DNA from: a virus
Length of the DNA: 64,000 bases
Strand: one strand, 5' to 3'
IMG/VR virus record: IMGVR_UViG_3300045988_149288
Position 1 is the stretch's first letter, and each line of letters starts with the position of its first letter. A model generated the notes under the pieces. It searched no databases, was not told the origin of the DNA, and saw only the letters and a program-made list of their open reading frames with translations. Shown here in pieces: positions 28,969 through 54,222 of the stretch. A program made the translations under genes and the position numbers.

Positions 28969-28970
28969 TA

Positions 28971-36963: not shown

Positions 36964-37007
36964 AAATACTTCCTTTTATTTTTATAGTTATGGGCATCAT
37001 AACTTAT

Positions 37008-37080
37008 TTTATTTATAAAATAAGTTAGGGAAAGGTTGCCGCCTTTCCCAAATAGCAGGAAGTATTTTTGCTATCTGTCC
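37008..37080 (-). promoter_or_regulatory. cassette A: hairpin + CTAACTTATTTTATAAATA + RBS-sequestering IR
   Basis: shared architecture with cassettes B, C, D; IR AGGAAGTAT (37058-37066) pairs with SD region ATACTTCCT (36966-36974). Confidence 0.5.
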
Positions 37081-37087
37081 TTATATA

Positions 37088-37879
37088 TTATTTATAATAT
37101 CTACCCGTTTTTGACATCTGGCGATTTACGTTTTCGATATTCTTTTCACGATAACATGCATAAATCTCGGAAGGTGTCATATTAAGATTTACAAAAATCT
37201 TCATAAACTTAATAAACATCTTATCACCGATTTCTTGAATTTTAAGCGGGTCTTCCTTCCAAGTATCGTAAACGCGCCAATCCTTATAACTCGCACAATT
37301 CTGATACAAGTCACCGACTGCTACGATGAAATCACCGATGAGATACTGAAGACTATTAGAACCGATAGTACCGGTCTTGGTATCTTCAACTGCTAAATCA
37401 TAGAACTTCTGAAGAGTCATCTTCGGACGATACTTGAGGTAAAGCAACTGATTATAAACGAAATGCAATGCGTCAACTGCTTCAGCCTTACCTTCCTTGG
37501 TTACTTCAAAATTGTCCTTTTCAAGCTGTTCCATGAGTTCAAAGAGTTCAGTAACGGTGCTCATCATGAAATAACCTGAACGCTTTGCATTCTGATGGTT
37601 ATCTTCATTATTCGTCGGAGCGAGAGTACCACGCTTTGCAGCAAGAATATTCTGAAGAGCTTCCTGCATATTATACATGGTTTCAAGTGCCGTTGCTTCA
37701 ATATATTCTTCAGGAAAATCCGGAAGCTTAATTTCAGAAGCCTTCAACTGCGGTGGAAGCGGCACTGATTCAGCAAACTTCTTAGCTTCTTCTGCACGCT
37801 TAGCCAGCTTTTCCTGAAGGACTACGAATTCGTCCCTTTCTTCCTGTACGTTTCCGTACATTTCACCTGTACTAATCAT
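37088..37879 (-). CDS. hypothetical protein (possible all-alpha NTP pyrophosphatase)
   Basis: 263-aa helical ORF; weak resemblance only. Confidence 0.3.
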   Translation of the reverse strand: MISTGEMYGNVQEERDEFVVLQEKLAKRAEEAKKFAESVPLPPQLKASEIKLPDFPEEYIEATALETMYNMQEALQNILAAKRGTLAPTNNEDNHQNAKRSGYFMMSTVTELFELMEQLEKDNFEVTKEGKAEAVDALHFVYNQLLYLKYRPKMTLQKFYDLAVEDTKTGTIGSNSLQYLIGDFIVAVGDLYQNCASYKDWRVYDTWKEDPLKIQEIGDKMFIKFMKIFVNLNMTPSEIYACYREKNIENVNRQMSKTGRYYK

Positions 37880-38235
37880 TAGTTAACCTTCTCCTTTCGA
37901 CTCTTCTTGGCCGGACGAGCAACAGGCTGTTCAGTCTTGATTTCATCTGCGGACTTCTGAAGAGTTTCCAATAAATTTTTCTGCATACGGATTGCGTCAA
38001 GAATACGAGTAGATTCTGCCGTAAGAAGAGTTTCATTACGTTCATATTCTTCGTCTGTAAGGCCAAGCAAATCCTTCATCACAAATTCACGAGAGAAAAG
38101 CGGAATAAAACCACTATCCAACTGAGGCATGAACTGCGCGAAAGTTCCCAAAAGCCCCGCAATCTTTGCAGAACGTTCATAATCAAATTTCTTTGATGTC
38201 TTTGTAGTCTTTGTTGTTTTCTTATTTGTTTTCAT
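37879..38235 (-). CDS. hypothetical protein
   Basis: 118-aa ORF; TTTACTATATTTGCAAT 8 nt upstream. Confidence 0.35.
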   Translation of the reverse strand: MKTNKKTTKTTKTSKKFDYERSAKIAGLLGTFAQFMPQLDSGFIPLFSREFVMKDLLGLTDEEYERNETLLTAESTRILDAIRMQKNLLETLQKSADEIKTEQPVARPAKKSRKEKVN

Positions 38236-38298
38236 AATATTGCAAATATAGTAAATAAATTTTTAACTAATTTTTGTTTACACGAAAAACTTCTGAAA

Positions 38299-39396
38299 TT
38301 AAAGGATTTCAAAATACGGTGCATACTTTTCCATCACTTCGACAACCTTCTTATATTCAATCTTGTCAAGATTCTTCGGAAGCATCATACCGCCCTTATT
38401 AATCAAATCTTCACAATGAGAATAATAAAGGAGCTTGTCTTCTTCTCGAGCAATCTTTTCCTGTTCAATAACAAGGTTAAATTCCTTCTTCGGAAGATAC
38501 TTCTTGAAATTCGAAATATACTTAGTATAGACAGACTTCAATTCTTCGGCATGTTCAGGATCTGTTGTTGCGGAAAGAATCAAAAGACCGTTATTGACAT
38601 ATTCCATGACACCAGCACGAGACTGATATGCAAGACCACGCTTTTCACGGATTTCATGATAAAGCGGAGAAGTCAACTTACCGTTAAGCATTTCAAGAGC
38701 GATAACGACATACGGATAGTCCTTCTTAGAAACCGGTCTCCTACAGATTGCAAAAACCGTTTCTTTTTCAGGAGCGGGAACAGGCATCAAATTAACCCTG
38801 TAATCCTTCTTCCAACGAAGATTAACTGTAATCTGCGGTTCCTTTGTCAAGAACTTGACCTTGACACCAGTAGTCTGGCGAGGACCAACTTCGACAATAC
38901 GAACAGGCTTGAAAAGTTCCTTATAGAGCTTCTTAGCGTCTGCAAGAGTAAAATTCATAACGTCTTCAGTCTTACCGAGAACAAGCTCGTTATTGAAGTG
39001 TTGACGAAGAATATTATGGAGCTTACCTTCTACAGGACGGTTATAGGCATCCAAGATTTCCTGATAAACAATCTTCTGTTCCTTTTCGAAAACTTCCTTG
39101 GTAACGTAAGTTTCGAAACCGCTGGTAACGCGTTCAATAAGCAACTTCTTCCATTCCGGAGTAAGATACTTGTCCATGCCAGTAAAATGAACAACGAGCA
39201 AGTCAGTGCTAGTATAAGCATTAAAATTAATGTTATACTTCTGGAAATCATCGAATTGGTCCTGAATGGTATTTGTAATCAAATGTTCCATCAGGTGATG
39301 ACAACCGTGCTGACCTTCCTTTTCATAGCTGGAGCCAGCTTTGAATACGATATACAAGCCAGTCTTCTTAAAAGATTTCTTCTTATAGATATACAT
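38299..39396 (-). CDS. M16-family (pitrilysin/insulinase-like) zinc peptidase
   Basis: Inverted zinc motif HxxEH in GCHHLMEHL near N-terminus. Confidence 0.55.
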   Translation of the reverse strand: MYIYKKKSFKKTGLYIVFKAGSSYEKEGQHGCHHLMEHLITNTIQDQFDDFQKYNINFNAYTSTDLLVVHFTGMDKYLTPEWKKLLIERVTSGFETYVTKEVFEKEQKIVYQEILDAYNRPVEGKLHNILRQHFNNELVLGKTEDVMNFTLADAKKLYKELFKPVRIVEVGPRQTTGVKVKFLTKEPQITVNLRWKKDYRVNLMPVPAPEKETVFAICRRPVSKKDYPYVVIALEMLNGKLTSPLYHEIREKRGLAYQSRAGVMEYVNNGLLILSATTDPEHAEELKSVYTKYISNFKKYLPKKEFNLVIEQEKIAREEDKLLYYSHCEDLINKGGMMLPKNLDKIEYKKVVEVMEKYAPYFEIL

Positions 39397-39417
39397 TGTT
39401 TTTCCTTATATTAATGT

Positions 39418-39912
39418 TTATATTTGTTCAATATTTACACCATTTCGTTTTAAAAATTCGATTGATTTAGAACCTCTATCATATGGTTCAACAAACATAA
39501 CATTTTTTATACCTACAGAATATATAAGTTTTGCACAATTTTCACAAGGTTGATGCGAAACAACCATAGTATAATTATGAATAGGTATATTATTTTTATT
39601 TGCCATTGCTATACAATTCATTTCTGCATGGATTTCTTGTTCATTTGCGAATTCGTGATGTTTGGCTCTCCATTCCATTTCTGGAACTTCCTTCCATTCT
39701 TCTTCCTTATTATCTCGCAGGTAAAACTTTCCGTTTTCAGATTTAAAAATTTCGTTACAGTTCACTTGTCCAGACGGAGTTCCGTTATAGCCGCAAGAAA
39801 TAATACGGCCTTTTTCAACGAGCAATGCAGCAACTTTCATCCTAGAACATTTGCTCAGGTTCTGATATTCCTTAAGAACTGTTTTATAAAGATGTTTATA
39901 CTTGAGTTCCAT
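39418..39912 (-). CDS. cd: dCMP deaminase
   Basis: Zinc-binding HAEMNCI and PCENCAKLI. Confidence 0.8.
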   Translation of the reverse strand: MELKYKHLYKTVLKEYQNLSKCSRMKVAALLVEKGRIISCGYNGTPSGQVNCNEIFKSENGKFYLRDNKEEEWKEVPEMEWRAKHHEFANEQEIHAEMNCIAMANKNNIPIHNYTMVVSHQPCENCAKLIYSVGIKNVMFVEPYDRGSKSIEFLKRNGVNIEQI

Positions 39913-40423
39913 AAAGTATTTCCTTTGGAAGTTCTAAAAACAGTTTACTAATTTTGATTATTTCTTTACGATATAATCGAATATAACGACTTCTATCATA
40001 AATACGATTTCCATGACCATCCCTGTGAAAACCCGTATATAAACGTTTATGATTAAGTTCGTTTTCAACCAAGGCCAAAAGTTTTTTTGGTGATGGCATA
40101 TAAAGTTTATTATCGTTCAAATATAATAATCCAAATTGAAATTTTTTGATAATGCCTTCAATATCGATACGCTGATTATTTCTGTTAATTATATCAACAC
40201 ATAAATATTTATCACCATTATCACCTTGTCCAGTTTTAAGCTGCATATTCCTTGTTTCACCAGTTATCAAATCTCGAATAATCAGGTCTATACCGTCAAG
40301 GTCTTCCTTTGACAAATAACGTGTACATTGAACATTGTACCGGCCTTTAAGACGAGCATTCATACCAATAGCAACAAGTGGCTGTGCAATTTTTCCAGCC
40401 TTTCTAGGATCTTTTTTATTCAT
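39896..40423 (-). CDS. hypothetical protein
   Basis: 175-aa ORF. Confidence 0.35.
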   Translation of the reverse strand: MNKKDPRKAGKIAQPLVAIGMNARLKGRYNVQCTRYLSKEDLDGIDLIIRDLITGETRNMQLKTGQGDNGDKYLCVDIINRNNQRIDIEGIIKKFQFGLLYLNDNKLYMPSPKKLLALVENELNHKRLYTGFHRDGHGNRIYDRSRYIRLYRKEIIKISKLFLELPKEILYGTQV

Positions 40424-40501
40424 ATAATTTCCTCATTAAAAATTGTTAAAAAGAAAAACAAAATAATAGGAAAATTAATTCCTATTATTTTGTCAGTTTG
40501 T

Positions 40502-41116
40502 TTAGAATACTTCTACCCATGCGCTTTGCGGCAAATGGTTAACTGTCACATAAGCGGTACATTTTACAATACCGTTAGGATTAGCTATCCTTTGAGCTTC
40601 AATATTCTTGATTTCTTTTTTCAATTTCGGATCTGACAAAGCATAATCCCATGCAGCGTCAGCATCAACGATGAACATTCTTGTCCAGTCTTTGCTAACG
40701 CAAAGGTACAAGGATAATCCGTCGTTTTGATGGAAATCATATAAAGAACTTATCGGAATTGAACCAGCTACGTAAGATGGAAGGCCCTTAGCATTTTCAA
40801 CCATTTCACAGGATGCAACTTTTAAATCGATCCTATATCCATTTTGGTACCAGTCGCCATTCGACCTATCGAAGTCGGTAAATTCCCAGTTGTCTTTGTC
40901 TTTAAGATGTTTGTTATACTTTACAAGATACTCAGGATTCTGAGTCTTATGCAAAATATTGATTTGCGGCGCAACCTTCTTCACGATGCTGATGAAACCC
41001 TGTTCTTCGGAATTTCCGTATGTATTCGGAATTACCGTAGGCGGATTTGCAATGCAAGCACCCTTAATTAAAGTTGAACTACCATTAAATAATGCAGAAA
41101 TAAGATTTCCTGTCAT
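40502..41116 (-). CDS. hypothetical protein
   Basis: 204-aa ORF. Confidence 0.35.
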   Translation of the reverse strand: MTGNLISALFNGSSTLIKGACIANPPTVIPNTYGNSEEQGFISIVKKVAPQINILHKTQNPEYLVKYNKHLKDKDNWEFTDFDRSNGDWYQNGYRIDLKVASCEMVENAKGLPSYVAGSIPISSLYDFHQNDGLSLYLCVSKDWTRMFIVDADAAWDYALSDPKLKKEIKNIEAQRIANPNGIVKCTAYVTVNHLPQSAWVEVF

Positions 41117-41235
41117 TTATTATCTTTGCTCCAAACCGCTTTTGAAGACTTCAAGATGATAATACAGACTTATACATTAATTTGTAGCTCGTCTGCCTGG
41201 GGCATAGCGGTAATGCCCTAGTTAGATGTCAAATT

Positions 41236-42090
41236 TTACTTTATACTTTTGATAATATTCGTATATTCAATAATGTTGGTTACTAACAATCCAATTCCGG
41301 AATTATTCGCAAATTCATTGAACTTTTTTGCTCTTGGTTCAGGATTATATTCAAACGAGTCAACGACACGATTAATTGCTTCAACATATTCTGTTGGAAT
41401 ATTTTCAAAAGAGATAAGCTTGGAATTTAATAAAAACTGTTCATTGAGATTGTTTTCGTCAAGCCACTTATCAAGCTCTCCGGAATTAACAATCTTTTCT
41501 GCGGTTTTCAGGCCAGTTCCGCGTTTAATTCCCGGAATGTCATCAGACTTATCGCCAGTAATAATCTTTACGAGCAAATCTGTTTCCGGGTTCAATGTTC
41601 CTAAATACTCTTTCTTTATCGCGTCGAACTGGTGATAATTTGGGTAAACAAAAAGTTGCATAAAGTCTCTATCAGAAGAAACATTATAGCATTCCCACTG
41701 TGGATGATACTTCGTAATTACTGCAATTTGATCGTCAGCCTCGGTCTTGGGCACATCTACGAAATAGATATTGGTACCTTCGAACGCTTTTTTCATACGT
41801 TCGAGCAAGTTACCCCAGACTTCAAAAAATTTATCGAAATTAACAATAGATGCGGAACGCTTTGCTGCACGACTGGCTTTATAGCCTTCATAAATGTCCT
41901 TACGCCAACTTGTTCCGTCAATACAACAAAATACCCTATTAGGATTGATTTCACTAATAGCCTTAAAGAAAGATGAGAAGAATGTCGCCTTAAATAACAG
42001 AAACTCCTTTTCTTCAGGTCCAGGAGTTTGCGCAAACAAACAGCGCATAATCATGTTAGAAATATCGAGGGTTAGTATCTTATTACTCAT
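41236..42090 (-). CDS. rnh: 5'-3' exonuclease / flap endonuclease (T4 RNase H-like)
   Basis: PIN-like N-domain with acidic clusters and H3TH GDKSDDIPGIKRGTGLKTAEKI. Confidence 0.85.
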   Translation of the reverse strand: MSNKILTLDISNMIMRCLFAQTPGPEEKEFLLFKATFFSSFFKAISEINPNRVFCCIDGTSWRKDIYEGYKASRAAKRSASIVNFDKFFEVWGNLLERMKKAFEGTNIYFVDVPKTEADDQIAVITKYHPQWECYNVSSDRDFMQLFVYPNYHQFDAIKKEYLGTLNPETDLLVKIITGDKSDDIPGIKRGTGLKTAEKIVNSGELDKWLDENNLNEQFLLNSKLISFENIPTEYVEAINRVVDSFEYNPEPRAKKFNEFANNSGIGLLVTNIIEYTNIIKSIK

Positions 42091-42133
42091 ACACCCTCAA
42101 ATATAGGTAAAAATAATTTTTTAGTCTTTCGCT

Positions 42134-42628: not shown

Positions 42629-42797
42629 ATTACCCAATATAGAAAAATGTTGTGTTTTTGTCAATAGTTAAATTAAAGCGAACATGACGATAATACCACC
42701 GAAGAGACCGACAAGGATGAGGGTCGCGATTATCTTCAGTGCTAATTCTTCAATGCCGTTGCCGAATAGATTTTTATCTTCATCTTTTGTCATATCA

Positions 42798-43214: not shown

Positions 43215-43724
43215 AATTTATCCTTAATGCTTAAATATAGCAAATCCATTACGATTCAATTACAACATATATATAAAATTTCCATGATTTTTTAAAATGA
43301 CAGAATATTTTATTTTTAGTTAAAAAATTTTTTGCAAAAACTTTCTATACTTGGGTTTACATATTCAAGTCTGATTCCTCGGAACGAAGACCAATCCAAT
43401 GGAATTGTCGGTAGAGGGTCAGCCATTGAAAACTTCAGATACGGGTTTTCCAGAAATGAGCTGGAATATCGTTTTGAAACATACTCGGTAACAGCTAGTG
43501 GAAGTATCAGCGAAGTGCAGATTAGCAATCTGCACGTTTAGCCGCCATGGTTTTAACGGATATAGCCGAAGTACAGGATGACCGCCTCGTAAGCCGTTAT
43601 GTAAATCCCGAAAGATTGACGATGAAGCTTTATACCAAAAGTGGAATAGTCATAGTCTGGAAGTTCCTTCTAGGCTTATGATCTCTGAATCGCATTACCC
43701 AAAAGATAGAACAAATAAAAATAA

Positions 43725-43755
43725 AACCTAGTCGTTAAACTAGGTTTTAAAATTT
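43725..43755. terminator. bidirectional terminator closing an ORF-poor region
   Basis: aaacctagtcgttaaactaggtttt. Confidence 0.5.
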
Positions 43756-44796: not shown

Positions 44797-44803
44797 ACAT
44801 TAT

Positions 44804-46342: not shown

Positions 46343-46674
46343 TCTTTACCTATAATCAACTTTATATTCTTCTTGATTTCATATGTCAGTGAATCAGGAA
46401 CTATTGGAAGAACCTTGATTGTACTGTCGTCGATAATCATTGTTACATGGCTGTTTCCGAAAATGTAGTAGAAGTTGATTTCTGTTCCTCTGTCTTCCAC
46501 TGATAACGAAAGTGCTTTAGTGTCTTTATTCTCGTTAGTCCTCGACATGATAACATTACGGTCGTGAATCGACTTGTTCATATCCGTAAAAACAGTCTTG
46601 ACATTATTGTAATTAATTGATCGCCAGTTTATATTGTCGTTCATATCATATTTATAAGTGGACAAAAATCCCAT
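46333..46674 (-). CDS. hypothetical protein
   Basis: 113-aa ORF. Confidence 0.3.
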   Translation of the reverse strand: MGFLSTYKYDMNDNINWRSINYNNVKTVFTDMNKSIHDRNVIMSRTNENKDTKALSLSVEDRGTEINFYYIFGNSHVTMIIDDSTIKVLPIVPDSLTYEIKKNIKLIIGKECV

Positions 46675-46700
46675 TTTTATAAATATATCAGTGAGGATTT

Positions 46701-47966
46701 ATGAAATTAACAGAAGCTAAAAAAATACTTGTGGAATATGGATATTTGCTTAAAGAATATTCGCCGCATCAAGAAACATATAGCCATGACAGTGAAGGCT
46801 GGGATGAAGCCGAAAAGCGTTTTAAGGCCGGTGCAGACTTAGTAAAAAAGAAAATTGATTCTTTGGACCTCGAAATTACTTCTGAAAATATGTCAGAACC
46901 CGCTCCGATGAATGATACATGGAATTATACCGTTAGGGCTAAATCTGATAATAATCTGACTTATTATTTTTCATTCCATGAAACTAAGCCAGAACGTCTT
47001 AAAGGAAAAGAAGATGTTAAAGGCGAGATGTATGATTACCGTTATTACGTATCTGTTGACGGTGCAATCAATAAGACTCTTTCGCCTGAAAAATCTTTTG
47101 AAAATTCTATAGATTGCGCTAAAGAAATGATAAATGCGATTGATTCCGTGATAAATATTGATACTTCTGGAGTAATTGCGGTTGCTGATAAGATTAAAGA
47201 TGAGTTAGACCCTTGGACTGCAAAGGGATATACAGTAAATGTTAAGATAAAAGAAGCAAATTATGGACATAATAAAGACTACGAAACATTCCTTGACATC
47301 ATTGTACAAAAGAAACTCAGTGACGAAGTTAGGAAATATACATATCAGGGATTTTCTGAACATTTGGCTGTAGCTTTCACCATTAATGGTAAAACATTAA
47401 AATGGAATATTTCTGCTATAAGAGGACATTCTCCGGAAACGATTTCCGCTGATGAAGGTTCTCTTGATAAAATGACTGAATTGATTCAGAAATATGTTCT
47501 TATAAAATATAATGAAATGCTGAGATCGATGAGCGATTCCAAGAAGCGTGCCAATACAGTCAAACCAGATAATTCTAATAAGAAGAAAGCGCAAGCCCGT
47601 CTTAAAGCACACATAGAGGACTTACTCGAAACCGATCTTATCGGTAATTTCGATAAGGCAGTAGAACTTAATAAGGATTACGTCAACGCCATAATCATGA
47701 AACCTGTTGCAGAAGCAGTAAATGATTATGTATATGATAATTACAGTGACGAAGACGGTAGCGTAGGTACTTGGGATGCTGATGACGCTTGGGATTATTT
47801 CGATGATGACTTTGTTGGTTATATCGAAAAGGAATGGAACGGTAGTATTAAGGACTATTGTGATGAATCCGATATTACAACCCTTGACGAATTACAGGAA
47901 GATGTAAAAGAAAATTGGGATTGGGATAGACCAAGCGAAAGTGCATTAGAATACGACCCATATTAA
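46701..47966 (+). CDS. acidic hypothetical protein (421 aa)
   Basis: plus-strand ORF preceded by TTTTTATAAATATAT...GAGGATTTATG and followed by a terminator. Confidence 0.45.
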   Translation: MKLTEAKKILVEYGYLLKEYSPHQETYSHDSEGWDEAEKRFKAGADLVKKKIDSLDLEITSENMSEPAPMNDTWNYTVRAKSDNNLTYYFSFHETKPERLKGKEDVKGEMYDYRYYVSVDGAINKTLSPEKSFENSIDCAKEMINAIDSVINIDTSGVIAVADKIKDELDPWTAKGYTVNVKIKEANYGHNKDYETFLDIIVQKKLSDEVRKYTYQGFSEHLAVAFTINGKTLKWNISAIRGHSPETISADEGSLDKMTELIQKYVLIKYNEMLRSMSDSKKRANTVKPDNSNKKKAQARLKAHIEDLLETDLIGNFDKAVELNKDYVNAIIMKPVAEAVNDYVYDNYSDEDGSVGTWDADDAWDYFDDDFVGYIEKEWNGSIKDYCDESDITTLDELQEDVKENWDWDRPSESALEYDPY

Positions 47967-47984
47967 TAGTTAATAAATTATAAA

Positions 47985-48015
47985 ATAAAAACCGGTTAAT
48001 TATAACCGGTTTTTA
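47985..48015. terminator. bidirectional terminator
   Basis: aaaaccggttaattataaccggttttt. Confidence 0.65.
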
Positions 48016-48057
48016 TTTACTTGTCTCGTTTTACAAAAATCGTAAATCCAAGGAAAC

Positions 48058-49107
48058 CTAAGAAATCAACATTTGTTTTTTATTTAAACTGTTTAAAAAA
48101 TTACTACCATATTTAAAATTCACATAATCCAAATATTTATCACAGTTTATAATTATTTTAACATTATGTTTTTTCATACAATCATATTTAGCTGCATCTT
48201 TCGTATTTTCAATTAACATTTTTTCATATAAAAATTTTGATTTTATTTCAACAAAAGTATTAAAAACTTTAAAATCTGGAAAATAATAATGTTTTTTATT
48301 ATTCCAATAATATTCAAATTTTTCTGTATGATATTCAAAACGTACATTATGATCTTTTAAATAAATGTAAAATGCAACTTCCCAGCTGCTATCAAACCAT
48401 TTATTATCATAAATATATTTAAACTGTGGCGAAACTGAATTATATTTTTCCATACATGTATTAAACTGTTTTTCTCTAACAACAGCTGCTTTCCATGGAT
48501 GATTAACACCATAATTTTCTAGCCATGTTTTTGCCCGCTTTTCACTAATTTCTTTATTATTTAATGAACATTTATCACCATAACGTTCAATATTAGTATT
48601 ATACATTTTTTCTAAATTATTTACCCATGGCTTATTATATTTTTCTAAACATGTTTGTATAGATTTTTCATGAAAAACTTCTCGATAATTTTCACCATAT
48701 TTTTTAATATTAGTTTTATGTAATTTTTCTTGATTATTATAATTTCTATTTCCATATTTTTCTAAGCATGTTTTATATTGTCCTTTTTCCCGTAATTCTT
48801 TTGAAGCCCAATTATGTTTTACTCCATATTTAGCTAAACATGTTTCTTCTGTCTTTTTACGAACTTCAGGACTATTATGTATTTCTTTAGATATACAATT
48901 TTTACAAATAAATGGAAATTTGAAAAATGTATCAGCTCTTCGAGATACAATAGAATTACATCGTTTACATTTAAATTTAACATGTAATCGATTTACTGAT
49001 TTTATTTTTGGAAGAGTATTAAATAATTCAAAATTATTATTATTGACAATTATTAAATCATTATCTTTTTCAAAATGATCTAGTATTATTTGAATTTCTT
49101 TTTTCAT
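48058..49107 (-). CDS. homing-endonuclease-like protein: Zn finger + repeated KYG modules + PD-(D/E)xK-like C-domain (AT-rich)
   Basis: Five to six repeats of (C/N)LEKYGxxxx; C-terminal YFPDF...VEIK nuclease-like; paralog of 53173..54093; RBS enclosed by IR. Confidence 0.5.
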   Translation of the reverse strand: MKKEIQIILDHFEKDNDLIIVNNNNFELFNTLPKIKSVNRLHVKFKCKRCNSIVSRRADTFFKFPFICKNCISKEIHNSPEVRKKTEETCLAKYGVKHNWASKELREKGQYKTCLEKYGNRNYNNQEKLHKTNIKKYGENYREVFHEKSIQTCLEKYNKPWVNNLEKMYNTNIERYGDKCSLNNKEISEKRAKTWLENYGVNHPWKAAVVREKQFNTCMEKYNSVSPQFKYIYDNKWFDSSWEVAFYIYLKDHNVRFEYHTEKFEYYWNNKKHYYFPDFKVFNTFVEIKSKFLYEKMLIENTKDAAKYDCMKKHNVKIIINCDKYLDYVNFKYGSNFLNSLNKKQMLIS

Positions 49108-49154
49108 ATATTACCTCAGTTATTAGTTATTAGTATGCTGCAACATACTATATT

Positions 49155-49220
49155 ATTTATAAAAAGTTAGACTGACCTTGCAGGGTCAGTCAAGTGTAAC
49201 TGAGGTAACACCTGTCCTTT
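49155..49220 (-). promoter_or_regulatory. cassette B: hairpin + CTAACTTTTTATAAATA + RBS-sequestering IR
   Basis: tatttataaaaagttag + gactgaccttgcagggtcagtc + cctgtcc; IR TAACTGAGGTA (49198-49208) vs TACCTCAGTTA (49112-49122). Confidence 0.5.
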
Positions 49221-50366
49221 TTATGATTTACGTCTTACGCAAATCGTAAAACCAAGAAAAGCTATTAAATATAAACTAGCTAAAATTAAGTATAATATAT
49301 TACCCGTAAAGGTATTTGCAAGAATTACAGAAGTTATACCAGCTAAACCCCAACCAGAAAGTGTCATTGAATGAACAGTTGATAAACAACTATCACCAAA
49401 TTGCTTAGCTAATAATGATGGCAATACAGAAAAATTACCGCCATATGCAAATTCACAGAATAATATACCACCTACCAATAAAACCGGATTTTGTGTATAA
49501 CATAAAAATGCGCCTAAAATACCAATAGTACATATAACATTATAGCTTCCTTTTCGTCCAATATAATCACTGGCCGTACTCATTCCAAATCGACCGCCGA
49601 CATTTGCAACAGCGGTAGCAGCCATGAGTGAAGCAATAGCAGTATATCCAGCATTTAAAAATAAGCTTTTTTCCTGTGAAATCAAAGCGAGTCCGCACGT
49701 AATGTTGATAAAGAACATGAACCAGATGGAAATATATTCTTTCGTCAGGAATTTCGCTTTCCATAGGTTCTTATAAGGAACAGCGGTATAGATGGTCGAA
49801 ATAAATGCAGGATTCGGTCTATATAACCAGGAAGAGAAAGACATTACTACAAGGAAAATCAGTCCCATGAGCAAGAATACAACAGGCAACGTAAAGTTTG
49901 CAAGCAAGTATTCAATCATAGGTGCTGCAACAAATTTACCAAGACCGAAACCACAAATACTTAATCCACTAAAAAATCCTTTATGATTTTGAGATAATGA
50001 TAATAATTGTTTAATGGGCGACGTATAACCTATACCAGTGCCGGTTCCCATAAATGAACAACCAATATAATATAATGGTAAAATTCCGGTATAAGATGCA
50101 AATGAGATAGTTAATAATCCTATTGCAAACAAAATTGTTGAAACTATCGCCATTCGTTTAGGAAACATTTCAACGAATCTTCCAAAAACAGCCGCACCCA
50201 TACCAAGGAAGAAAATAATCAATGTAAATCCAATATCAGCGGAGAACTTTGAAATATTAAAAACCTCCATGATATTTTTAGCATATTGCGAATAATTATA
50301 TACACTTCCTAAAACTAATGGAATAAAAATTCCTGGTAAAACAATATTAAATAAATCTTTTTTCAT
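49221..50366 (-). CDS. major facilitator superfamily transporter (10-12 TM)
   Basis: MFS motif-A-like GRFVEMFPKR and DYIGRKG; 12 hydrophobic segments; AT-rich; flanked by cassettes B and C. Confidence 0.65.
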   Translation of the reverse strand: MKKDLFNIVLPGIFIPLVLGSVYNYSQYAKNIMEVFNISKFSADIGFTLIIFFLGMGAAVFGRFVEMFPKRMAIVSTILFAIGLLTISFASYTGILPLYYIGCSFMGTGTGIGYTSPIKQLLSLSQNHKGFFSGLSICGFGLGKFVAAPMIEYLLANFTLPVVFLLMGLIFLVVMSFSSWLYRPNPAFISTIYTAVPYKNLWKAKFLTKEYISIWFMFFINITCGLALISQEKSLFLNAGYTAIASLMAATAVANVGGRFGMSTASDYIGRKGSYNVICTIGILGAFLCYTQNPVLLVGGILFCEFAYGGNFSVLPSLLAKQFGDSCLSTVHSMTLSGWGLAGITSVILANTFTGNILYLILASLYLIAFLGFTICVRRKS

Positions 50367-50377
50367 AATGCAATATT

Positions 50378-50446
50378 TATATATTTAAAAAAGTTAGGGT
50401 AATGCCGCAAACATTACCCAAGCGCTACGGAAAACGCCTGTCCTTT
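50378..50446 (-). promoter_or_regulatory. cassette C (no RBS-sequestering IR evident)
   Basis: atatttaaaaaagttag + gggtaatgccgcaaacattaccc + cgcctgtcc immediately after stop of 50447..50815. Confidence 0.45.
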
Positions 50447-50815
50447 TTAATTAAATGCCTTCGCTGTCATATCTTCGTCATAAAGTTCTTTATACTCATG
50501 CATAAGTTTCAAATTGAAATGCCAATATGGATCTTCTGCATTATCATATTCGATTTTTCCTGTACACTTGTATTCTTCCTTAGGAATATCCCAATAAATA
50601 TCGAGTCCGCCATCTAATTCTTCGATTTTGAGACTAATATTTGGAAGTATTCCATAAGGGTCAAAGATATGCCCGAAAAATCCAGAAATCTGTCGAGAAA
50701 GATATAATACATTATTGCCATTTACTGGTTTTATCAATGCATTATAAATTTTACGTCTGAATTCAATATTATTATCATCGACTATATTACGCCATTCATC
50801 TTGTGTCATTTTCAC
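50447..50815 (-). CDS. hypothetical protein
   Basis: 122-aa ORF. Confidence 0.35.
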   Translation of the reverse strand: MKMTQDEWRNIVDDNNIEFRRKIYNALIKPVNGNNVLYLSRQISGFFGHIFDPYGILPNISLKIEELDGGLDIYWDIPKEEYKCTGKIEYDNAEDPYWHFNLKLMHEYKELYDEDMTAKAFN

Positions 50816-51591
50816 CTCGTCTTATAACCAAAGGGCACCATTTCGGCCTTTATGAATTCTTTATATTTATTCAAACCAATTTCGTTAATTACCCAATTTT
50901 CATCGACTGGTTTTTTAAAATCATAGACAGGTACACAGTCATATTTTGAGTGTTGATTGAATTTATAAAGATAATTCAGAAACATTGCAATGTCGGTATT
51001 GCAATAATCGATAAAATTCTGACATTCAGTTTTGGTAGCAAATCCAATATACTGATTTTTGAGTTTTAAGGCACTTTCGGGGACATTTTGGACTGGGGTG
51101 TATCTTTCCTTGGATAAAAGTGTACACCAGTCCCAGGCTCGTCTATGGCCTCTTATATCGCTTAATTGGATATACCAGGTATTCTTCTTTCCCTGTTCAG
51201 TTCCGATAGTCTTTTTTCCTATTAAATAAGCGTCAACTATCTTCGTAATTTCCTTATATTTCTCAGGATCCGAAAATCTGTTGAATCTGAGGTCATAAAG
51301 GTCAAGTTGCTTCTTGTCGAACTTGAAAATACCGACATCTGAGAAAAATTCGGCATCATCAAACTTTGCATCTCCGACGACAGTCTCAATACGACTGAAA
51401 GACTCGAATCTTTCGTTAAGAATCGAAATATGCTTGTTATTGATATTTTCCTTGATACGATGGTTGTCAACAAAATCTGTAGGTACTAGCCAGACAGCGG
51501 AATCTGTGAACTTCTCACATTCCGACATTACTTTGAGGTAGAACTTTTCACCTTTACCAATATAAGGAGGATTTCCGATTATCGTAAACAT
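50812..51591 (-). CDS. N6-adenine DNA methyltransferase, C-terminal piece (motif IV NPPY onwards)
   Basis: Begins MFTIIGNPPYIG (gamma-class motif IV, cf. M.TaqI FDLILGNPPY). Confidence 0.65.
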   Translation of the reverse strand: MFTIIGNPPYIGKGEKFYLKVMSECEKFTDSAVWLVPTDFVDNHRIKENINNKHISILNERFESFSRIETVVGDAKFDDAEFFSDVGIFKFDKKQLDLYDLRFNRFSDPEKYKEITKIVDAYLIGKKTIGTEQGKKNTWYIQLSDIRGHRRAWDWCTLLSKERYTPVQNVPESALKLKNQYIGFATKTECQNFIDYCNTDIAMFLNYLYKFNQHSKYDCVPVYDFKKPVDENWVINEIGLNKYKEFIKAEMVPFGYKTR

Positions 51592-52010
51592 TTTAAATTA
51601 CTTTCAGTTTCAAGATTGGAAGCAAGTTTCAAAAAGTCCGCGTCTGTATTTATGGTTATCGACCAGTCCCTGCATTGAACTATATCGTTTCGTTTGAAAA
51701 CGACATCACATACTTCTGGCATGATGTCATAAACTGGTTTTTCACGTGTATTATAAATCGCTTCATACTTTTTGGAGCAAATACCGATTCCAGCATACAT
51801 GTTGGGAAATTTGAACATTCCCCAGACACATGGACGTCGACCAAGATTGTCTGTATAATCCTGACTTGAAAAATGACAAATAAGCGGAAGCTGATGATAA
51901 TACACTGACTTCTTTATTTTTTCATTACCTCTTAGAATGGTAATTTTGATTTTATTTTTATTTAAGAACACACTCAGTCTCCAAATTGTGAATAAATTTT
52001 TGAAATGCAT
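51579..52010 (-). CDS. small protein, tandem paralog 3 of 3 inside split MTase
   Basis: C-terminus RNDIVQCRDWSITINTDADFLKLASNLETESNLK conserved with two neighbours. Confidence 0.4.
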   Translation of the reverse strand: MHFKNLFTIWRLSVFLNKNKIKITILRGNEKIKKSVYYHQLPLICHFSSQDYTDNLGRRPCVWGMFKFPNMYAGIGICSKKYEAIYNTREKPVYDIMPEVCDVVFKRNDIVQCRDWSITINTDADFLKLASNLETESNLKCLR

Positions 52011-52293
52011 AATTAGAATCTAATTTAATTGTCCATCCACGACATGAAACGGTATCGCCTTTAAAAAACTCTGCAGCCTTGATATAAAATGGTAGAGTTC
52101 CAGCCATGAATTCTTTATATTCATCTTTATACAATATTACAAACTTGACATAATTACCATTATTGTCATACTCATACCAGCTAAGACAGGTATTATTTAT
52201 CTCTGAATAACAAACATAGAAAGCTTTTGATTTGTTTTTACGTTTAATCCGAACCTTTATTGCTCCAAGTACATATTTTTTACTGCAATACAT
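51958..52293 (-). CDS. small protein, tandem paralog 2 of 3
   Basis: KGDTVSCRGWTIKLDSNYAFQKFIHNLETECVLK. Confidence 0.4.
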   Translation of the reverse strand: MYCSKKYVLGAIKVRIKRKNKSKAFYVCYSEINNTCLSWYEYDNNGNYVKFVILYKDEYKEFMAGTLPFYIKAAEFFKGDTVSCRGWTIKLDSNYAFQKFIHNLETECVLK

Positions 52294-52714
52294 TTTCCAT
52301 CTCCAAATTGTTTACAAGTCTGTCAATATCGCCGCTAGTTTTGATTTCAAGTGTCCAAGTAGGAAATACAACAGTATCTCCACGCTTGATAATATATGTT
52401 GCACGGTCTGGAGTTAACAAACCATAAAAATACCCAGTATTACTTCTATCGATTTCACTTACGGGAATATACTGTACACCAAGGGCATATTTTTCATCTG
52501 GCGGAACATTAGTATGTGGTTTGCCCATCATTAACATGTTTAAATAATCCATAGTGTCTCGCCATTTTTCGGTCAAATCTGGATTATATTTTTTACTGGT
52601 GAAAACTTCTATTCTAAACCAGGGCGCATATTCGACTCTGCTTGAATGTCCGTTTCTAATTACAGTAAACAAAATAGGCTTTGCATGATTTTCAGTAGTA
52701 TCGATAGAACACAT
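52280..52714 (-). CDS. small protein, tandem paralog 1 of 3
   Basis: RGDTVVFPTWTLEIKTSGDIDRLVNNLEMENVLQ. Confidence 0.4.
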   Translation of the reverse strand: MCSIDTTENHAKPILFTVIRNGHSSRVEYAPWFRIEVFTSKKYNPDLTEKWRDTMDYLNMLMMGKPHTNVPPDEKYALGVQYIPVSEIDRSNTGYFYGLLTPDRATYIIKRGDTVVFPTWTLEIKTSGDIDRLVNNLEMENVLQ

Positions 52715-52722
52715 TTGGCCTC

Positions 52723-53172
52723 CTAAGAAACGAATTCAGCAAATCCGCTATTCTTAATATCGGATTCGTTTACTTCTTCCTTTGGCTTCCAGTTTTCAAA
52801 ATCCCATTTGAAAAAGTCAGCACATACAATATTACGGTTTACAATCTTTGCGTATTCAGGTCCAACAATCTCAAGAATTCGTCTTACACATAAATCTCTG
52901 TTATCCTGCATGAGTTCAACACCATAAAGTGTCTTTACCGCATCTTCTGTTGAAATACCTGAAGCAAGGCGTTTTTTTAACATACCTATTAAAATTTGAC
53001 CATTTCCTGCACAAGGATCTAGAAATTTTGCTTTAGGATCTTTCCATTTAACTTCCGGAATTTTGCTAATCATTTGGTTAATAACAGAAAATGGAGTAAA
53101 TACTTCTCCATTTTTCTTTATACGTTCTTTATCACGTATTATACCGTCATTATTTGTAAACAAATCACACAT
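52723..53172 (-). CDS. N6-adenine DNA methyltransferase, N-terminal piece (motifs X, I-III)
   Basis: GEVFTPFSV (motif X), FLDPCAGNGQIL (motif I FxGxG), CADFFKW (cf. M.TaqI ADFLLWEP) then stop before motif IV. Confidence 0.65.
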   Translation of the reverse strand: MCDLFTNNDGIIRDKERIKKNGEVFTPFSVINQMISKIPEVKWKDPKAKFLDPCAGNGQILIGMLKKRLASGISTEDAVKTLYGVELMQDNRDLCVRRILEIVGPEYAKIVNRNIVCADFFKWDFENWKPKEEVNESDIKNSGFAEFVS

Positions 53173-54093
53173 TTAATCTCTCTCTAAAATGATATTCTTT
53201 ATAAAAGATAGCATATTATCTTTATTTTGTAAATAGTCATTTTCTTTAATTCTTATTAACGTAATACCCAATGATAAACATAAAGCATCTTTTTTAGCAT
53301 CACGTTCCCAAATATCTTTAGCTAATGTATTTTCAATAAAATCTGTTTCTTTATAAATGTTTGGGTCAGCATGCCAATATCTGCCATCATATTCAAATGC
53401 TATTTTTAATTCTGGCAAATATATATCTAATTCTCTACCTTTTAAAATGGATCTATCATGCGCTATTATATTACCGTTATAAAATTCACATATCCAAGAA
53501 TATATTTCAAATTCTGCTTTTGAACCAGCTAAATGTTTTTGTATTTTATTTGCTATTTTTTCTTTAACTTCTGGCCATTGAAATGGATTTTCGAAGCCAT
53601 GATTTTTTATATTTGTAGCCTTTATTTTTTCTCTATTAAAATTTTTACCAAATTTTTTACAGGCTTCTTCAGAATGATAATTACCGTTATGTTTCATTCT
53701 TCGAGTTTCTTCTTGTTTTTTACGATTTATTGGATCTGCAAAATTTGAACTATAACCACAATGTTTAATAAATGTATTTACTTTCTTTTCTTTAATTATA
53801 GAAGATTGTGATGGATTTTTTACACCATATTTTTTAAGACATGTATTTTCACGTTGTAGTTTTTTATTTGGGTCTAACATCTGACATTTAACAGAACAAA
53901 ACTGTCTATATCCTGTAGAAATATTAATATAATGTGTTTTGTTATTGCAATCTGGATTATGACAAATATCTTCATTTTCTCGCTTTAGATATTTATCATA
54001 ATATTCTTTACTTTTTAATTTATGAACTGACTTTAAATGACATACCAATGTATGAAATTTGTCAAATTCGCTATTGCAAATTTTACAATACAT
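53173..54093 (-). CDS. homing-endonuclease-like protein: C2H2 Zn finger + KYG repeats + Vsr/DUF559-like PD-(D/E)xK domain (AT-rich)
   Basis: C-terminal ELDIYLPELKIAFEYDGRYWH; N-terminal CKICNSEF..H..H; adjacent to split MTase; RBS enclosed by IR. Confidence 0.55.
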   Translation of the reverse strand: MYCKICNSEFDKFHTLVCHLKSVHKLKSKEYYDKYLKRENEDICHNPDCNNKTHYINISTGYRQFCSVKCQMLDPNKKLQRENTCLKKYGVKNPSQSSIIKEKKVNTFIKHCGYSSNFADPINRKKQEETRRMKHNGNYHSEEACKKFGKNFNREKIKATNIKNHGFENPFQWPEVKEKIANKIQKHLAGSKAEFEIYSWICEFYNGNIIAHDRSILKGRELDIYLPELKIAFEYDGRYWHADPNIYKETDFIENTLAKDIWERDAKKDALCLSLGITLIRIKENDYLQNKDNMLSFIKNIILERD

Positions 54094-54139
54094 ATTTACC
54101 TCGTAATTTTAAAATATTAATTTCCTAGATTAATTTTAT

Positions 54140-54210
54140 TATATTTATAAAAAGTTAGCCAGGAACTAGGAATTCCTGGCAAGCACTACGAGGTATGCCT
54201 GTCCTTTTGT
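54140..54210 (-). promoter_or_regulatory. cassette D: hairpin + CTAACTTTTTATAAATA + RBS-sequestering IR
   Basis: atatttataaaaagttag + ccaggaactaggaattcctgg + gcctgtcc; IR CTACGAGGTA (54186-54195) vs TACCTCGTAA (54097-54106). Confidence 0.5.
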
Positions 54211-54222
54211 TTTATTTATATA

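What the first reader, a model, noticed from the sequence alone, without database searches (positions are those of the whole stretch)
36964..54210. Fourfold conserved 'terminator hairpin + TATAAATA + RBS-sequestering inverted repeat' cassette at the 5' flank of mobile or AT-rich genes
Four intergenic sites (37008-37080, 49155-49220, 50378-50446, 54140-54210) share the same plus-strand architecture: TTTATAAAAAGTTAG, then a GC-rich hairpin, then about 20 nt, then (C/T)CTGTCCTTTT. On the coding (minus) strand each starts directly after the stop of the upstream gene (TAA-AAAGGACAGG), followed by the hairpin, then CTAACTTTTTATAAATA (T-run plus T4-late-promoter-like TATAAATA), then the downstream gene. 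In three of the four sites the Shine-Dalgarno of the downstream gene lies in an 8-11 nt inverted repeat: TAACTGAGGTA/TACCTCAGTTA, CTACGAGGTA/TACCTCGTAA and AGGAAGTAT/ATACTTCCT. The partner arm lies upstream of the TATAAATA box. Read-through transcripts would therefore occlude the RBS, whereas transcripts starting at the TATAAATA box would not. This is the translational control logic known for T4 homing endonuclease and late genes, here packaged as a repeated mobile-gene promoter cassette. The cassettes may also act as recombination or homing borders.
Basis: seen in the sequence. Interest (0 to 1): 0.75.

Follow-up and report, generated by a model that had tools for sequence, protein, structure and literature searches.

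The report
Kissing-loop leader controlling phage homing endonucleases
Four intergenic repeats in this distant T4-like phage belong to a wider, undescribed family of structured RNA leaders placed in front of selfish nuclease genes, built so that the gene's ribosome-binding site is masked in transcripts arriving from upstream and free in transcripts starting at a late-type promoter inside the element.

Summary
The four cassettes are real and far beyond chance. A covariance model finds exactly four in 64 kb at 55-73 bits; the next hit scores 22.

The "about 20 nt" is a conserved hairpin, H1, that displays the anti-Shine-Dalgarno sequence in its loop. After the GC hairpin H2 and the TATAAATA box comes a third hairpin, H3. 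Its loop is the exact Watson-Crick complement of the H2 loop.

Both complementarities (H1 loop with SD, H2 loop with H3 loop) differ between cassettes but match within each one. This holds in 21 independent cassettes from metagenomic phage contigs, nine of which were found blind. No derangement out of about 73,000 reached the observed score.

Folding puts the SD at 0.23 unpaired in read-through RNA and 0.72 in box-initiated RNA, higher in the latter in 20 of 20 cassettes.

The downstream genes are homing-endonuclease-like. Site 3, before an MFS transporter, is an orphan 5' half: a relative (L120) carries the same 5' half with the matching H3, SD and endonuclease.

The regulatory logic is the known T4 I-TevI/segB/mobE one. 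The conserved three-hairpin, kissing-loop packaging is new and absent from Rfam. Whether it acts in cis or in trans is unresolved.

The parts
49212..49219 (-). Site 2: invariant 5' motif AAGGACAG, 1 nt after the stop codon TAA (49221-49223) of the MFS gene
49191..49214 (-). Site 2: hairpin H1 (CAGGTGT...ACACTTG). Its loop 49196-49207, TTACCTCAGTTA, is the anti-SD
49170..49191 (-). Site 2: GC-rich hairpin H2, loop CTGCAA at 49178-49183
49154..49170 (-). Site 2: CTAACTTTTTATAAATA (late-promoter-like box at 49154-49161)
49132..49149 (-). Site 2: hairpin H3 (AGTATG TTGCAG CATACT). Its loop 49138-49143 is the reverse complement of the H2 loop
49111..49122 (-). Site 2: SD region TAACTGAGGTAA, complementary to the H1 loop; start codon ATG at 49105-49107
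48058..49107 (-). Site 2 downstream gene: 349-aa DUF7487 / PHROG 3339 homing-endonuclease-like protein
54213..54220 (-). Site 4: extra TATAAATA box 6 nt upstream of AAGGACAG
54199..54206 (-). Site 4: AAGGACAG
54180..54201 (-). Site 4: H1; its loop 54186-54195, TACCTCGTAG, is the anti-SD
54158..54180 (-). Site 4: H2, loop TTCCTAG at 54166-54172
54142..54158 (-). Site 4: CTAACTTTTTATAAATA (box at 54142-54149)
54116..54134 (-). Site 4: H3 (ATTAAT CTAGGAA ATTAAT). Its loop 54122-54128 is the reverse complement of the H2 loop
54097..54105 (-). Site 4: SD region TACGAGGTA, complementary to the H1 loop; ATG at 54091-54093
53173..54093 (-). Site 4 downstream gene: 306-aa DUF7487 / PHROG 3339 and 559 homing-endonuclease-like protein
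37089..37096 (-). Site 1: extra TATAAATA box overlapping the upstream stop codon, 6 nt before AAGGACAG
37075..37082 (-). Site 1: AAGGACAG
37049..37077 (-). Site 1: H1 (9 bp); its loop 37058-37068, AAAATACTTCC, is the anti-SD
37028..37049 (-). Site 1: H2, loop CGGCAA at 37036-37041
37010..37028 (-). Site 1: CTAACTTATTTTATAAATA (box at 37010-37017)
36986..37004 (-). Site 1: H3 (AGTTATG ATGCC CATAACT). Only 4 bp (TGCC/GGCA) are complementary to the H2 loop, so this copy is degenerate
36964..36974 (-). Site 1: SD region AGGAAGTATTT, complementary to the H1 loop; ATG at 36961-36963
36658..36963 (-). Site 1 downstream gene: 101-aa ORF resembling the N-terminal zinc-finger part of the site-4 endonuclease; probably a truncated endonuclease gene
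   Evidence: 28% identity over 67 aa, pairwise E 2e-4; no Pfam or PHROG hit
50374..50445 (-). Site 3: orphan 5' half. AAGGACAG 50438-50445; H1 50419-50440 with loop TTTTCCGTAG; H2 50397-50419 with loop TTTGCGG; TATAAATA 50374-50381. It has no H3 and no SD, and lies directly before the MFS gene (49221-50366)
   Evidence: The matching H3 loop (CCGCAAA), SD (TACGGAGAA) and endonuclease gene are present in L119/L120

Best explanation
Each cassette is the transcribed leader of a free-standing homing-endonuclease gene, and it has two halves.

**The two halves**
- The 5' half is AAGGACAG, then hairpin H1 with an anti-SD in its loop, then hairpin H2, then CUAAC and a U-run. It lies upstream of a T4-late-type TATAAATA box.
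- The 3' half is hairpin H3, whose base lies 3-7 nt after the box (mode 4), followed by the SD and the start codon.

**Proposed mechanism**
- RNA that enters from upstream carries both halves. This includes read-through from the preceding gene and, at sites 1 and 4, RNA from an extra box placed 6 nt before AAGGACAG.
- In that RNA the H2 and H3 loops (6-7 nt, fully Watson-Crick complementary) kiss. This brings the H1 anti-SD next to the SD, 70-95 nt away.
- A long-range helix then forms that buries the ribosome-binding site, so the nuclease is not translated.
- RNA that starts at the internal box lacks H1 and H2. It begins at or near the base of H3 (at the three window sites, 0-1 nt upstream at sites 2 and 1 and about 3 nt upstream at site 4), which may act as a 5' stabiliser, and has a free SD. 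Translation is therefore restricted to late-promoter transcripts.
- H2 with its displaced U-run may also attenuate read-through.

**Shown here:** the hairpins, both complementarities, their covariation, the predicted change in SD accessibility, and the association with endonuclease genes.

**Inferred:** promoter use, the transcription start position, termination at H2, and whether inhibition acts in cis.
For: **Copy number and structure**
- There are exactly four copies in the window.
- H1 and H2 are paired in 100% of 280 cells across 20 sequences. 11 of 14 pairs show compensatory changes. The covariation score is 1.005 against 0.258 when shuffled, and slid controls give 31-45% paired.
- An invariant G.U pair in the base of H1, together with other G.U pairs, shows that the sense-strand RNA is the folded species.

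**Self versus non-self complementarity in 21 independent cassettes**
- H1 apex against its own SD region scores 163, versus 91.0 +/- 4.3 for derangements (maximum 110; 0 of 73,480 reach the observed value).
- H2 apex against its own downstream region scores 140, versus 76.4 +/- 4.1 (maximum 101; 0 of 73,491).
- The result holds in a validation set of 9 cassettes. These were found through endonuclease homology plus a model of the 5' half alone.

**Loop-loop helix**
- On alignments anchored by each hairpin's own stem, 100% of cells pair.
- 5 of 6 positions (six-nt loops) and 4 of 7 positions (seven-nt loops) show compensatory changes. Slid controls give 18-47%.

**Folding**
- A long-range anti-SD:SD helix appears in the minimum-free-energy fold of 11 of 13 read-through RNAs.
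- SD unpaired probability is 0.23 in read-through RNA and 0.72 in box-initiated RNA, higher in the latter in 20 of 20 (p = 9e-5).

**Genes and promoters**
- Downstream genes belong to DUF7487 / PHROG 3339, SegE-like GIY-YIG, or look HNH-like by motif.
- TATAAATA is enriched (18 observed, 6.6 expected). 17 of 18 copies are on the coding strand, and most are intergenic just before start codons.

**Orphan site 3**
- Its loops find their exact partners in L119/L120.

**Precedent**
- The same logic is published for T4 I-TevI/II/III, segB and Aeh1 mobE (PMC2988022).
Against: - There are no transcript data. TATAAATA use, the start site and termination at H2 are all inferred.
- No gp55-type sigma factor was found among the 30 window ORFs scanned against PHROGs.
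- A simple cis hairpin would be enough for RBS masking. Strict conservation and covariation of H1, which must open for the long-range helix to form, is not needed in a purely cis model. Loop-displayed complementarity fits bimolecular recognition better.
- The invariant AAGGACAG and CUAAC have no role in this model.
- The H2 U-run is 4 nt from the stem. True terminators in the window have an adjacent U-run.
- ViennaRNA cannot model the kissing complex, so its contribution is not quantified.
Confidence: 0.6

Rival explanations
1. Trans-acting version. The 5' half (AAGGACAG-H1-H2-U-run, about 65 nt) is released as a small RNA. It could arise as the terminated or processed 3' end of the upstream mRNA, or from its own late promoter placed 6-7 nt upstream. 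It then binds the late-promoter endonuclease mRNA in trans. Contact starts with H2-loop/H3-loop kissing at the mRNA's 5'-terminal hairpin, followed by H1-loop/SD pairing, which blocks translation. This would be an antitoxin-like, tandemly encoded antisense pair, with a separate lock and key for each cassette.
For: - The two-hairpin module folds on its own in all 21 instances.
- H1 is strictly conserved with covariation even though it competes with the cis helix.
- Complementary 6-7-nt loops are the classic nucleation device of antisense RNAs (own knowledge: CopA/CopT, RNA I/RNA II, IS10 RNA-OUT/RNA-IN).
- An exact TATAAATA lies 6-7 nt before AAGGACAG in 4 of 21 independent cassettes: sites 1 and 4, L120 and L151. 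My own rough estimate of the chance expectation is about 0.01.
- Cassettes that share a genome carry different loops.
- The orphan site-3 5' half is 96% identical to the one in L120, while the adjacent MFS gene is only 78% identical.
Against: - Most cassettes have no promoter upstream.
- H2 is a questionable terminator.
- No partner for the site-3 loops exists elsewhere in the window.
- The loop repertoire is small, about 9 types among 21 cassettes, so orthogonality is limited.
- The high identity of the orphan is equally explained by recent transfer.
- Every sequence feature is also compatible with action in cis.
Confidence: 0.25
2. DNA-level element. The cassettes are mainly recombination or homing borders, like the PeSL cassettes of T4-type phages. 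Their conserved blocks and promoter repeats would drive insertion, deletion and exchange of endonuclease modules, and RNA regulation would be secondary.
For: - There are two pairs of alleles with and without the endonuclease. One is window site 3 versus L120. The other is L048 versus L022/L013/L039, between nrdD and nrdG.
- Both pairs break inside or just after the TATAAA box. The site-3 junction lies between two similar T-run/box sequences, CTAACTTTTT|ATAAATA and ACATTTTT|AAATATATAAATA.
- The site-3 5' half is a mosaic segment: 96% identical, with a 78%-identical gene on one side and unrelated sequence on the other.
- PeSL provides a precedent (PMC2839356, PMC4122927).
Against: - Recombination borders do not need two independent complementarities between variable loops and downstream sequence.
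- They do not need stem covariation with sense-strand G.U pairs either.
- The conserved blocks are only 8 and 17 nt long.
- This role can coexist with RNA regulation but cannot replace it.
Confidence: 0.1
3. Ordinary terminator-plus-late-promoter intergenic repeats that resemble each other by common descent, with the SD inverted repeats arising by chance because all SDs look alike.
For: - Composite sites of a terminator hairpin, T-run and TATAAATA without AAGGACAG exist elsewhere in the window, at 28946 and 36472.
- All H1 loops are pyrimidine-rich anti-SD-like sequences.
Against: - Self complementarity far exceeds non-self complementarity for both loops: 0 of about 73,000 derangements reach the observed score.
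- The result was replicated in a blind validation set.
- Variant cassettes that lack AAGGACAG keep the same four-part logic: L133, L139 and L140.
Confidence: 0.01

Closest known systems
Late-promoter / RBS-sequestering hairpin control of T4-family homing endonucleases (I-TevI, I-TevII, I-TevIII, segB, Aeh1 mobE; review PMC2988022)
   Same: - The regulated gene is an endonuclease.
- A TATAAATA-type promoter is placed between the 5' arm and the RBS arm.
- Only transcripts from upstream can mask the RBS.
- The purpose is to restrict nuclease synthesis.
   Different: - The published cases are single local hairpins, each specific to one gene.
- Here the anti-SD is displayed in the loop of a conserved hairpin 70-95 nt upstream.
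- It is separated from the SD by a second hairpin and the promoter, and assisted by a co-varying loop-loop pair (H2-H3).
- The whole element is a repeated family with invariant flanking motifs. It serves DUF7487-type, GIY-YIG and apparently HNH-type endonuclease genes in many phage contigs.
PeSL (promoter-early stem-loop) mobile regulatory cassettes of T4-type phages (PMC2839356, PMC4122927)
   Same: - Repeated intergenic composites of a stem-loop, a promoter and an SD.
- They flank non-core, AT-rich genes.
- They sit at the borders of insertions and deletions between related phages.
   Different: - PeSLs carry sigma-70-type early promoters and flank ORFans.
- They have no reported complementarity between the stem-loop and the downstream leader.
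- The present cassettes carry a late-type box, precede endonuclease genes and have two long-range RNA complementarities.
Kissing-loop antisense RNA control (CopA/CopT, ColE1 RNA I/RNA II, IS10 RNA-OUT/RNA-IN, type I toxin-antitoxin pairs; own knowledge)
   Same: - Fully complementary 6-7-nt hairpin loops.
- A loop-displayed sequence that ends up covering the SD and start region of a potentially harmful gene.
   Different: - Those regulators are transcribed from the opposite strand or from a separate locus, and have been shown to act in trans.
- Here both partners lie in tandem on the same strand. Action in trans is only a possibility.
Three-way-junction RNAs with L2-L3 loop-loop contact (for example the purine riboswitch aptamer; own knowledge)
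   Same: In the predicted read-through fold an outer helix (anti-SD:SD) encloses two hairpins whose loops are complementary.
   Different: - There is no evidence for a ligand.
- The junction strand is the promoter sequence itself.
- The resemblance is architectural only.

Membership tests
T4-type late-promoter/RBS-hairpin endonuclease control | The regulated gene is a homing endonuclease | tested here: met
   - Sites 2 and 4 hit DUF7487 / PHROG 3339 'homing endonuclease'.
- The site-1 ORF resembles the N-terminal zinc-finger part of such a protein.
- Site 3 had an endonuclease gene in the relative L120.
- Family members precede DUF7487, SegE-like GIY-YIG and HNH-like genes.
- Nuclease activity and mobility were not tested.
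T4-type late-promoter/RBS-hairpin endonuclease control | A late promoter lies between the inhibitory arm and the RBS arm | tested here: inconclusive
   - A TATAAATA box is present at that position in all four sites.
- The box is enriched, strand-biased and intergenic in the window.
- Promoter activity and a gp55-type sigma factor were not demonstrated (none).
T4-type late-promoter/RBS-hairpin endonuclease control | The RBS is paired in upstream-initiated transcripts and free in late transcripts | tested here: met
   Shown by prediction only, but supported by covariation of the pairing.
T4-type late-promoter/RBS-hairpin endonuclease control | Mapped late transcript start and delayed translation in infection | not testable with these tools
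   Needs 5'-RACE or dRNA-seq, and reporter or western time courses.
PeSL cassettes | Consensus sigma-70 early promoter (-35 and -10 hexamers) | tested here: not met
   The sigma-70 scan lists no promoter-like site within any of the four cassettes. The conserved element is TATAAATA.
PeSL cassettes | A stable stem-loop acting as terminator or attenuator upstream of the promoter | tested here: inconclusive
   H2 is a stable GC-rich stem and is listed as terminator-like only under a lenient rule. The U-run is displaced by UAAC.
PeSL cassettes | Located at the borders of insertions and deletions between related phages | tested here: met
   Two allele pairs break at the box.
Intrinsic (rho-independent) terminator | A U-tract immediately after a GC-rich stem | tested here: not met
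   The tail is UAACUUUUUA. In variant cassettes the U-run stays next to the box, at 1-12 nt from H2.
Any Rfam 15 family | A match at or near the family's gathering score | tested here: not met
   There is no hit at the cassettes with gathering thresholds. With the E-value threshold, run on sites 2, 3 and 4 only, there are only chance-level hits (E > 2).
Trans-acting antisense / type I antitoxin-like sRNA | A discrete small transcript that acts on a separate mRNA | not testable with these tools
   Only indirect hints exist: an upstream box at N6-7 in 4 cassettes and an autonomous two-hairpin fold.

The most novel reading that the evidence does not exclude
The 5' half is a stand-alone small RNA of about 65 nt. 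It would start at AAGGACAG when a late box lies 6-7 nt upstream, or otherwise be the 3' end of the preceding mRNA. It would repress its neighbouring endonuclease mRNA in trans through a two-point contact: first H2 loop with H3 loop, then H1 loop with the SD. That would make it a tandemly encoded, same-strand, antitoxin-like antisense system. Its two variable loops would give each selfish nuclease gene a private regulator, and orphan copies such as site 3 could keep policing incoming endonuclease genes.
Probability: 0.25. Interest if true: 0.85.

Novelty: new variant of a known kind. Interest (0 to 1): 0.68.

Why it matters
Homing endonucleases are selfish nucleases that must be kept nearly silent for phage and element to coexist. 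So far their control is known from a handful of individually studied T4-family hairpins.

This finding points to a portable, conserved RNA device that does that job for DUF7487-type, GIY-YIG and apparently HNH-type endonuclease genes across many uncultured phages. Its anatomy is precise and its covariation is unusually clean, including a pseudoknot-type loop-loop helix.

The device offers:
- a new structured-RNA family to curate;
- a natural, reprogrammable two-key switch, with interchangeable H1 loop/SD and H2 loop/H3 loop pairs;
- directly testable predictions about cis versus trans control;
- a sequence marker for endonuclease insertions and their remnants in phage genomes.

Tried and rejected
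- **Close relatives.** A megablast of 8 kb around the sites against INPHARED gave no match. The polymerase is only about 30% identical to cyanomyovirus gp43, so no annotated close relative could be used.
- **Scan with the 3' motif alone.** Scanning IMG/VR with CTAACTTTTTATAAATA returned 67 new loci (L051-L117), all chance matches with no hairpins.
- **Single-protein search for related loci.** The site-4 endonuclease alone found nothing. An alignment of five endonucleases was needed.
- **Closing helix between the A-run and the U-run.** RNAfold predicted it for three sites. It is not supported across the family, because the A-run varies from 2 to 7 nt and only site 1 shows one compensatory change. 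I dropped it.
- **Trans targets for the orphan site-3 loops.** Within the window there are only scattered coding-region matches.
- **MotA-box reading of TGCTTG in the H1 3' arm.** The sequence is not consistent across members, so I rejected this from inspection of the sequences.
- **Small ORF starting after AAGGA.** It is present only at site 2, so I rejected it.
- **gp55-like sigma factor.** None was found among the 30 window ORFs scanned against PHROGs.
- **Host from MAG labels.** The identical L119 and L120 sequences were binned to two unrelated taxa, so this is uninformative.
- **Typing error.** The first loop-loop alignment (A4) contained my typing error in the site-1 row. I replaced it with A5 and A6.

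Full report
**1. The observation**

Reading the four sites on the minus strand confirms the shared architecture.
- AAGGACAG occurs five times in 64 kb, four of them at the sites.
- CTAACTTTTTATAAATA is exact at sites 2 and 4 and slightly altered at sites 1 and 3.
- A covariance model of the 5' half (A1/R1), run without filters, finds exactly these four at 55-73 bits. The next hit is 22 bits.

The window is a phage only distantly related to T4.
- Its gp43-type polymerase is about 30% identical to those of cyanomyoviruses. UvsX, RNA ligase, NAD ligase, dCMP deaminase and DHFR are also present.
- It has no close relative in INPHARED.

TATAAATA is enriched: 18 copies observed against 6.6 expected. 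17 of 18 lie on the coding strand, mostly in intergenic DNA just before start codons.

**2. The real anatomy**

The '20 nt' between AAGGACAG and the GC hairpin is itself a hairpin, H1.
- Its base is invariant (C-G, A-U, G.U).
- Its upper stem varies with compensation.
- Its 10-12-nt loop contains the anti-SD.

H2 follows immediately.

Its loop is the reverse complement of the H2 loop:
- site 2, CTGCAA/TTGCAG;
- site 4, TTCCTAG/CTAGGAA;
- site 1, only GGCA/TGCC.

The SD region, ending 0-4 nt before the ATG, is complementary to the H1 loop over 9-12 nt at sites 1, 2 and 4.

Site 3 has H1, H2 and the box but no H3 and no SD.

Sites 1 and 4 also carry a second TATAAATA exactly 6 nt upstream of AAGGACAG.

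**3. A family, not a local oddity**

Pattern scans of IMG/VR, JGI metagenomes and GTDB genomes returned about 16 distinct cassettes. All fold as two adjacent hairpins.

On the model-based alignment of 20 sequences:
- 100% of 280 cells are paired;
- 11 of 14 pairs show compensatory changes;
- the covariation score is 1.005 against 0.258 +/- 0.029 when shuffled;
- slid controls give 31-45% paired.

The invariant G.U, and other G.U pairs, would be C.A on the other strand. The folded molecule is therefore the sense RNA.

No Rfam family matches (for the whole window; for sites 2-4).

**4. Lock and key**

For 12 independent cassettes, the summed longest complement between each H1 apex and its own SD region was 97, against 54.5 +/- 3.3 for derangements. 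For the H2 apex it was 78 against 45.3 +/- 3.1. No derangement reached the observed value.

I then built a blind validation set.
- Loci encoding relatives of the endonuclease came from alignment A3.
- They were searched with the model of the 5' half only.
- Nine new independent cassettes emerged. All lie on the endonuclease strand, mostly directly upstream.
- Every one shows both complementarities.

| Set | H1 apex vs own SD | Derangements | H2 apex vs own downstream | Derangements |
|---|---|---|---|---|
| All 21 cassettes | 163 | 91.0 +/- 4.3 (0 of 73,480 reach it) | 140 | 76.4 +/- 4.1 (0 of 73,491 reach it) |
| The 9 new ones alone | 66 | 39.1 | 61 | 31.9 |

One H2 in the new set (L164) was mis-parsed. 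Its true match is 6 nt.

I also aligned loops anchored only by their own stems.
- The loop-loop helix is 100% Watson-Crick.
- 5 of 6 positions (12 cassettes with six-nt loops) and 4 of 7 positions (5 cassettes with seven-nt loops) change compensatorily.
- Slid controls give 18-47%.

An earlier version of this alignment contained my typing error in the site-1 row and is superseded.

Three cassettes that lack AAGGACAG still keep the same four-part logic: L133, L139 and L140/L148.

**5. What is regulated**

- The genes after sites 2 and 4 are DUF7487 / PHROG 3339 'homing endonuclease' proteins.
- The 101-aa ORF after site 1 resembles the N-terminal zinc-finger part of the site-4 protein.
- In the family, the downstream genes are DUF7487, SegE-like GIY-YIG, or HNH-like by motif.
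- Several cassettes sit between nrdD and nrdG, a classic endonuclease insertion site (PMC2988022).

Site 3 precedes an MFS transporter. L119/L120 carry an identical 5' half followed by three things:
- an H3 with loop CCGCAAA, the reverse complement of the site-3 H2 loop TTTGCGG;
- the SD TACGGAGAA, which matches the site-3 H1 loop;
- a 255-aa endonuclease gene, and only then the MFS ortholog.

Site 3 is therefore a deletion derivative. The junction lies between CTAACTTTTT|ATAAATA and the similar ACATTTTT|AAATATATAAATA at the 3' end of the endonuclease gene.

A second pair behaves the same way. L048 (nrdD, 5' half, nrdG) and L022/L013/L039 (with the endonuclease) break just after TATAAA.

**6. 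How it most likely works**

RNAfold of read-through RNA replaces H1 by a long-range anti-SD:SD helix that encloses H2 and H3 in 11 of 13 cassettes.

| Site | Read-through fold (kcal/mol) | Local folds only (kcal/mol) |
|---|---|---|
| 2 | -40.4 | -26.4 |
| 4 | -31.2 | -21.7 |
| 1 | -37.8 | -29.1 |

SD unpaired probability is 0.23 in read-through RNA against 0.72 in RNA starting 5 nt after the box. It is higher in the latter in 20 of 20 cassettes (p = 9e-5).

For the window the values are:
- site 1, 0.21 to 0.84;
- site 2, 0.00 to 0.61;
- site 4, 0.02 to 0.53.

Several window genes have TATAAATA-N4-ATG, and H3 usually begins with AG 3-5 nt after the box. This suggests that late RNAs start at or near the base of H3.

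Together this is the I-TevI/segB/mobE logic (PMC2988022), extended by a kissing-loop clamp.

H2 scores as terminator-like only under a lenient rule. Its U-run is displaced by UAAC, and in variants it tracks the box instead. I therefore treat termination as, at most, attenuation.

**7. What remains open**

- H1's strict conservation, the loop display of both recognition sequences, and the exact upstream box at N6-7 in four cassettes fit a trans-acting small RNA at least as well as a cis clamp. Sequence alone cannot decide between them.
- The invariant AAGGACAG and CUAAC are unexplained. They could form a protein- or RNase-binding platform.
- The orphan site-3 5' half is 96% identical to L120's, while the adjacent gene is 78% identical and the other flank is unrelated. 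This points to recent transfer or strong constraint.
- A recombination-border role like that of PeSLs (PMC2839356, PMC4122927) is supported by the two breakpoints. It cannot account for the RNA covariation, so I regard it as an additional property.

**8. Verdict**

The element is a new, well-supported structured-RNA variant of a known regulatory principle.

Noticed in passing
window 43340-43750 (+ strand); cow-rumen-2 match at 43509-43613: A strong Rfam hit to cow-rumen-2 RNA (RF02947, 107.5 bits against a gathering score of 66). It lies on the strand opposite to all neighbouring genes, inside a gap of about 700 nt, and is followed by a hairpin plus T-run at 43722-43749. The block 43346-43427 just upstream is 83-87% conserved in L026, L119 and L120. 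Together these look like one larger non-coding RNA gene of about 380 nt carried by these phages.
   Followed up: partly
window 62596-62603, 58975-58982, 28939-28946 (minus strand): Three genes have TATAAATA followed by exactly 4 nt and then ATG, with no SD. This suggests leaderless late mRNAs and a start site at the fifth nucleotide after the box.
   Followed up: partly
window 49221-50366 (-); L120 4944-6089; L026 12988-14133: A phage-borne MFS transporter gene (Pfam MFS_1, E 2.5e-22), AT-rich (GC 0.28). It travels with endonuclease cassettes in three otherwise different contexts, at 74-78% DNA identity.
   Followed up: partly
L133, L139, L140/L148 (upstream of their DUF7487 genes): Variant leaders that lack the AAGGACAG/CTAAC motifs but keep the anti-SD, H2, the box, an H3 with a complementary loop, and a matching SD. 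For example, L133 has CTTACTCC/GGAGTAAG and TTGCCG/CGGCAA. The architecture therefore outlives the sequence motif.
   Followed up: partly
L013, L022, L039 (nrdD-nrdG intergenic endonuclease gene): The endonuclease reading frame stops after 45-48 codons and appears to continue after the stop in all three relatives. This could be a conserved pseudogene or possibly recoding.
   Followed up: no
window 28939-28975 and 36465-36504 (minus strand): Composite sites of a terminator hairpin, T-run and TATAAATA without the cassette motifs. Here the U-run abuts the stem. Terminator-promoter fusion seems to be the general intergenic grammar of this phage.
   Followed up: no
window 46649-46685: Divergent TATAAATA boxes lie 22 nt apart, at 46649-46656 (minus) and 46678-46685 (plus). 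The plus-strand box is the only one of its kind in the window and lies just before the only long plus-strand gene (46701-47966).
   Followed up: no
window 50812-51591 and 52723-53172 (minus strand): Two separate ORFs both match DNA-methyltransferase PHROG 11371, at different parts of the profile, in the AT-rich stretch between sites 3 and 4. L001 and L120 carry endonuclease-methyltransferase fusion genes. Methyltransferase fragments seem to travel with these endonucleases.
   Followed up: no
L126 3413-3488; L149 1550-1618: Further orphan or variant 5' halves. L126 has AAGGACAAG and lies after an endonuclease gene, before a TATAAATA-N4-ATG gene. L149 has no TATAAATA and runs straight into an AGGAGG SD.
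   Followed up: no
L119 and L120: Identical phage sequence was binned into MAGs of two unrelated taxa (Candidatus Coprovivens and Succinivibrionaceae). Host assignment from these bins is therefore unreliable.
   Followed up: no
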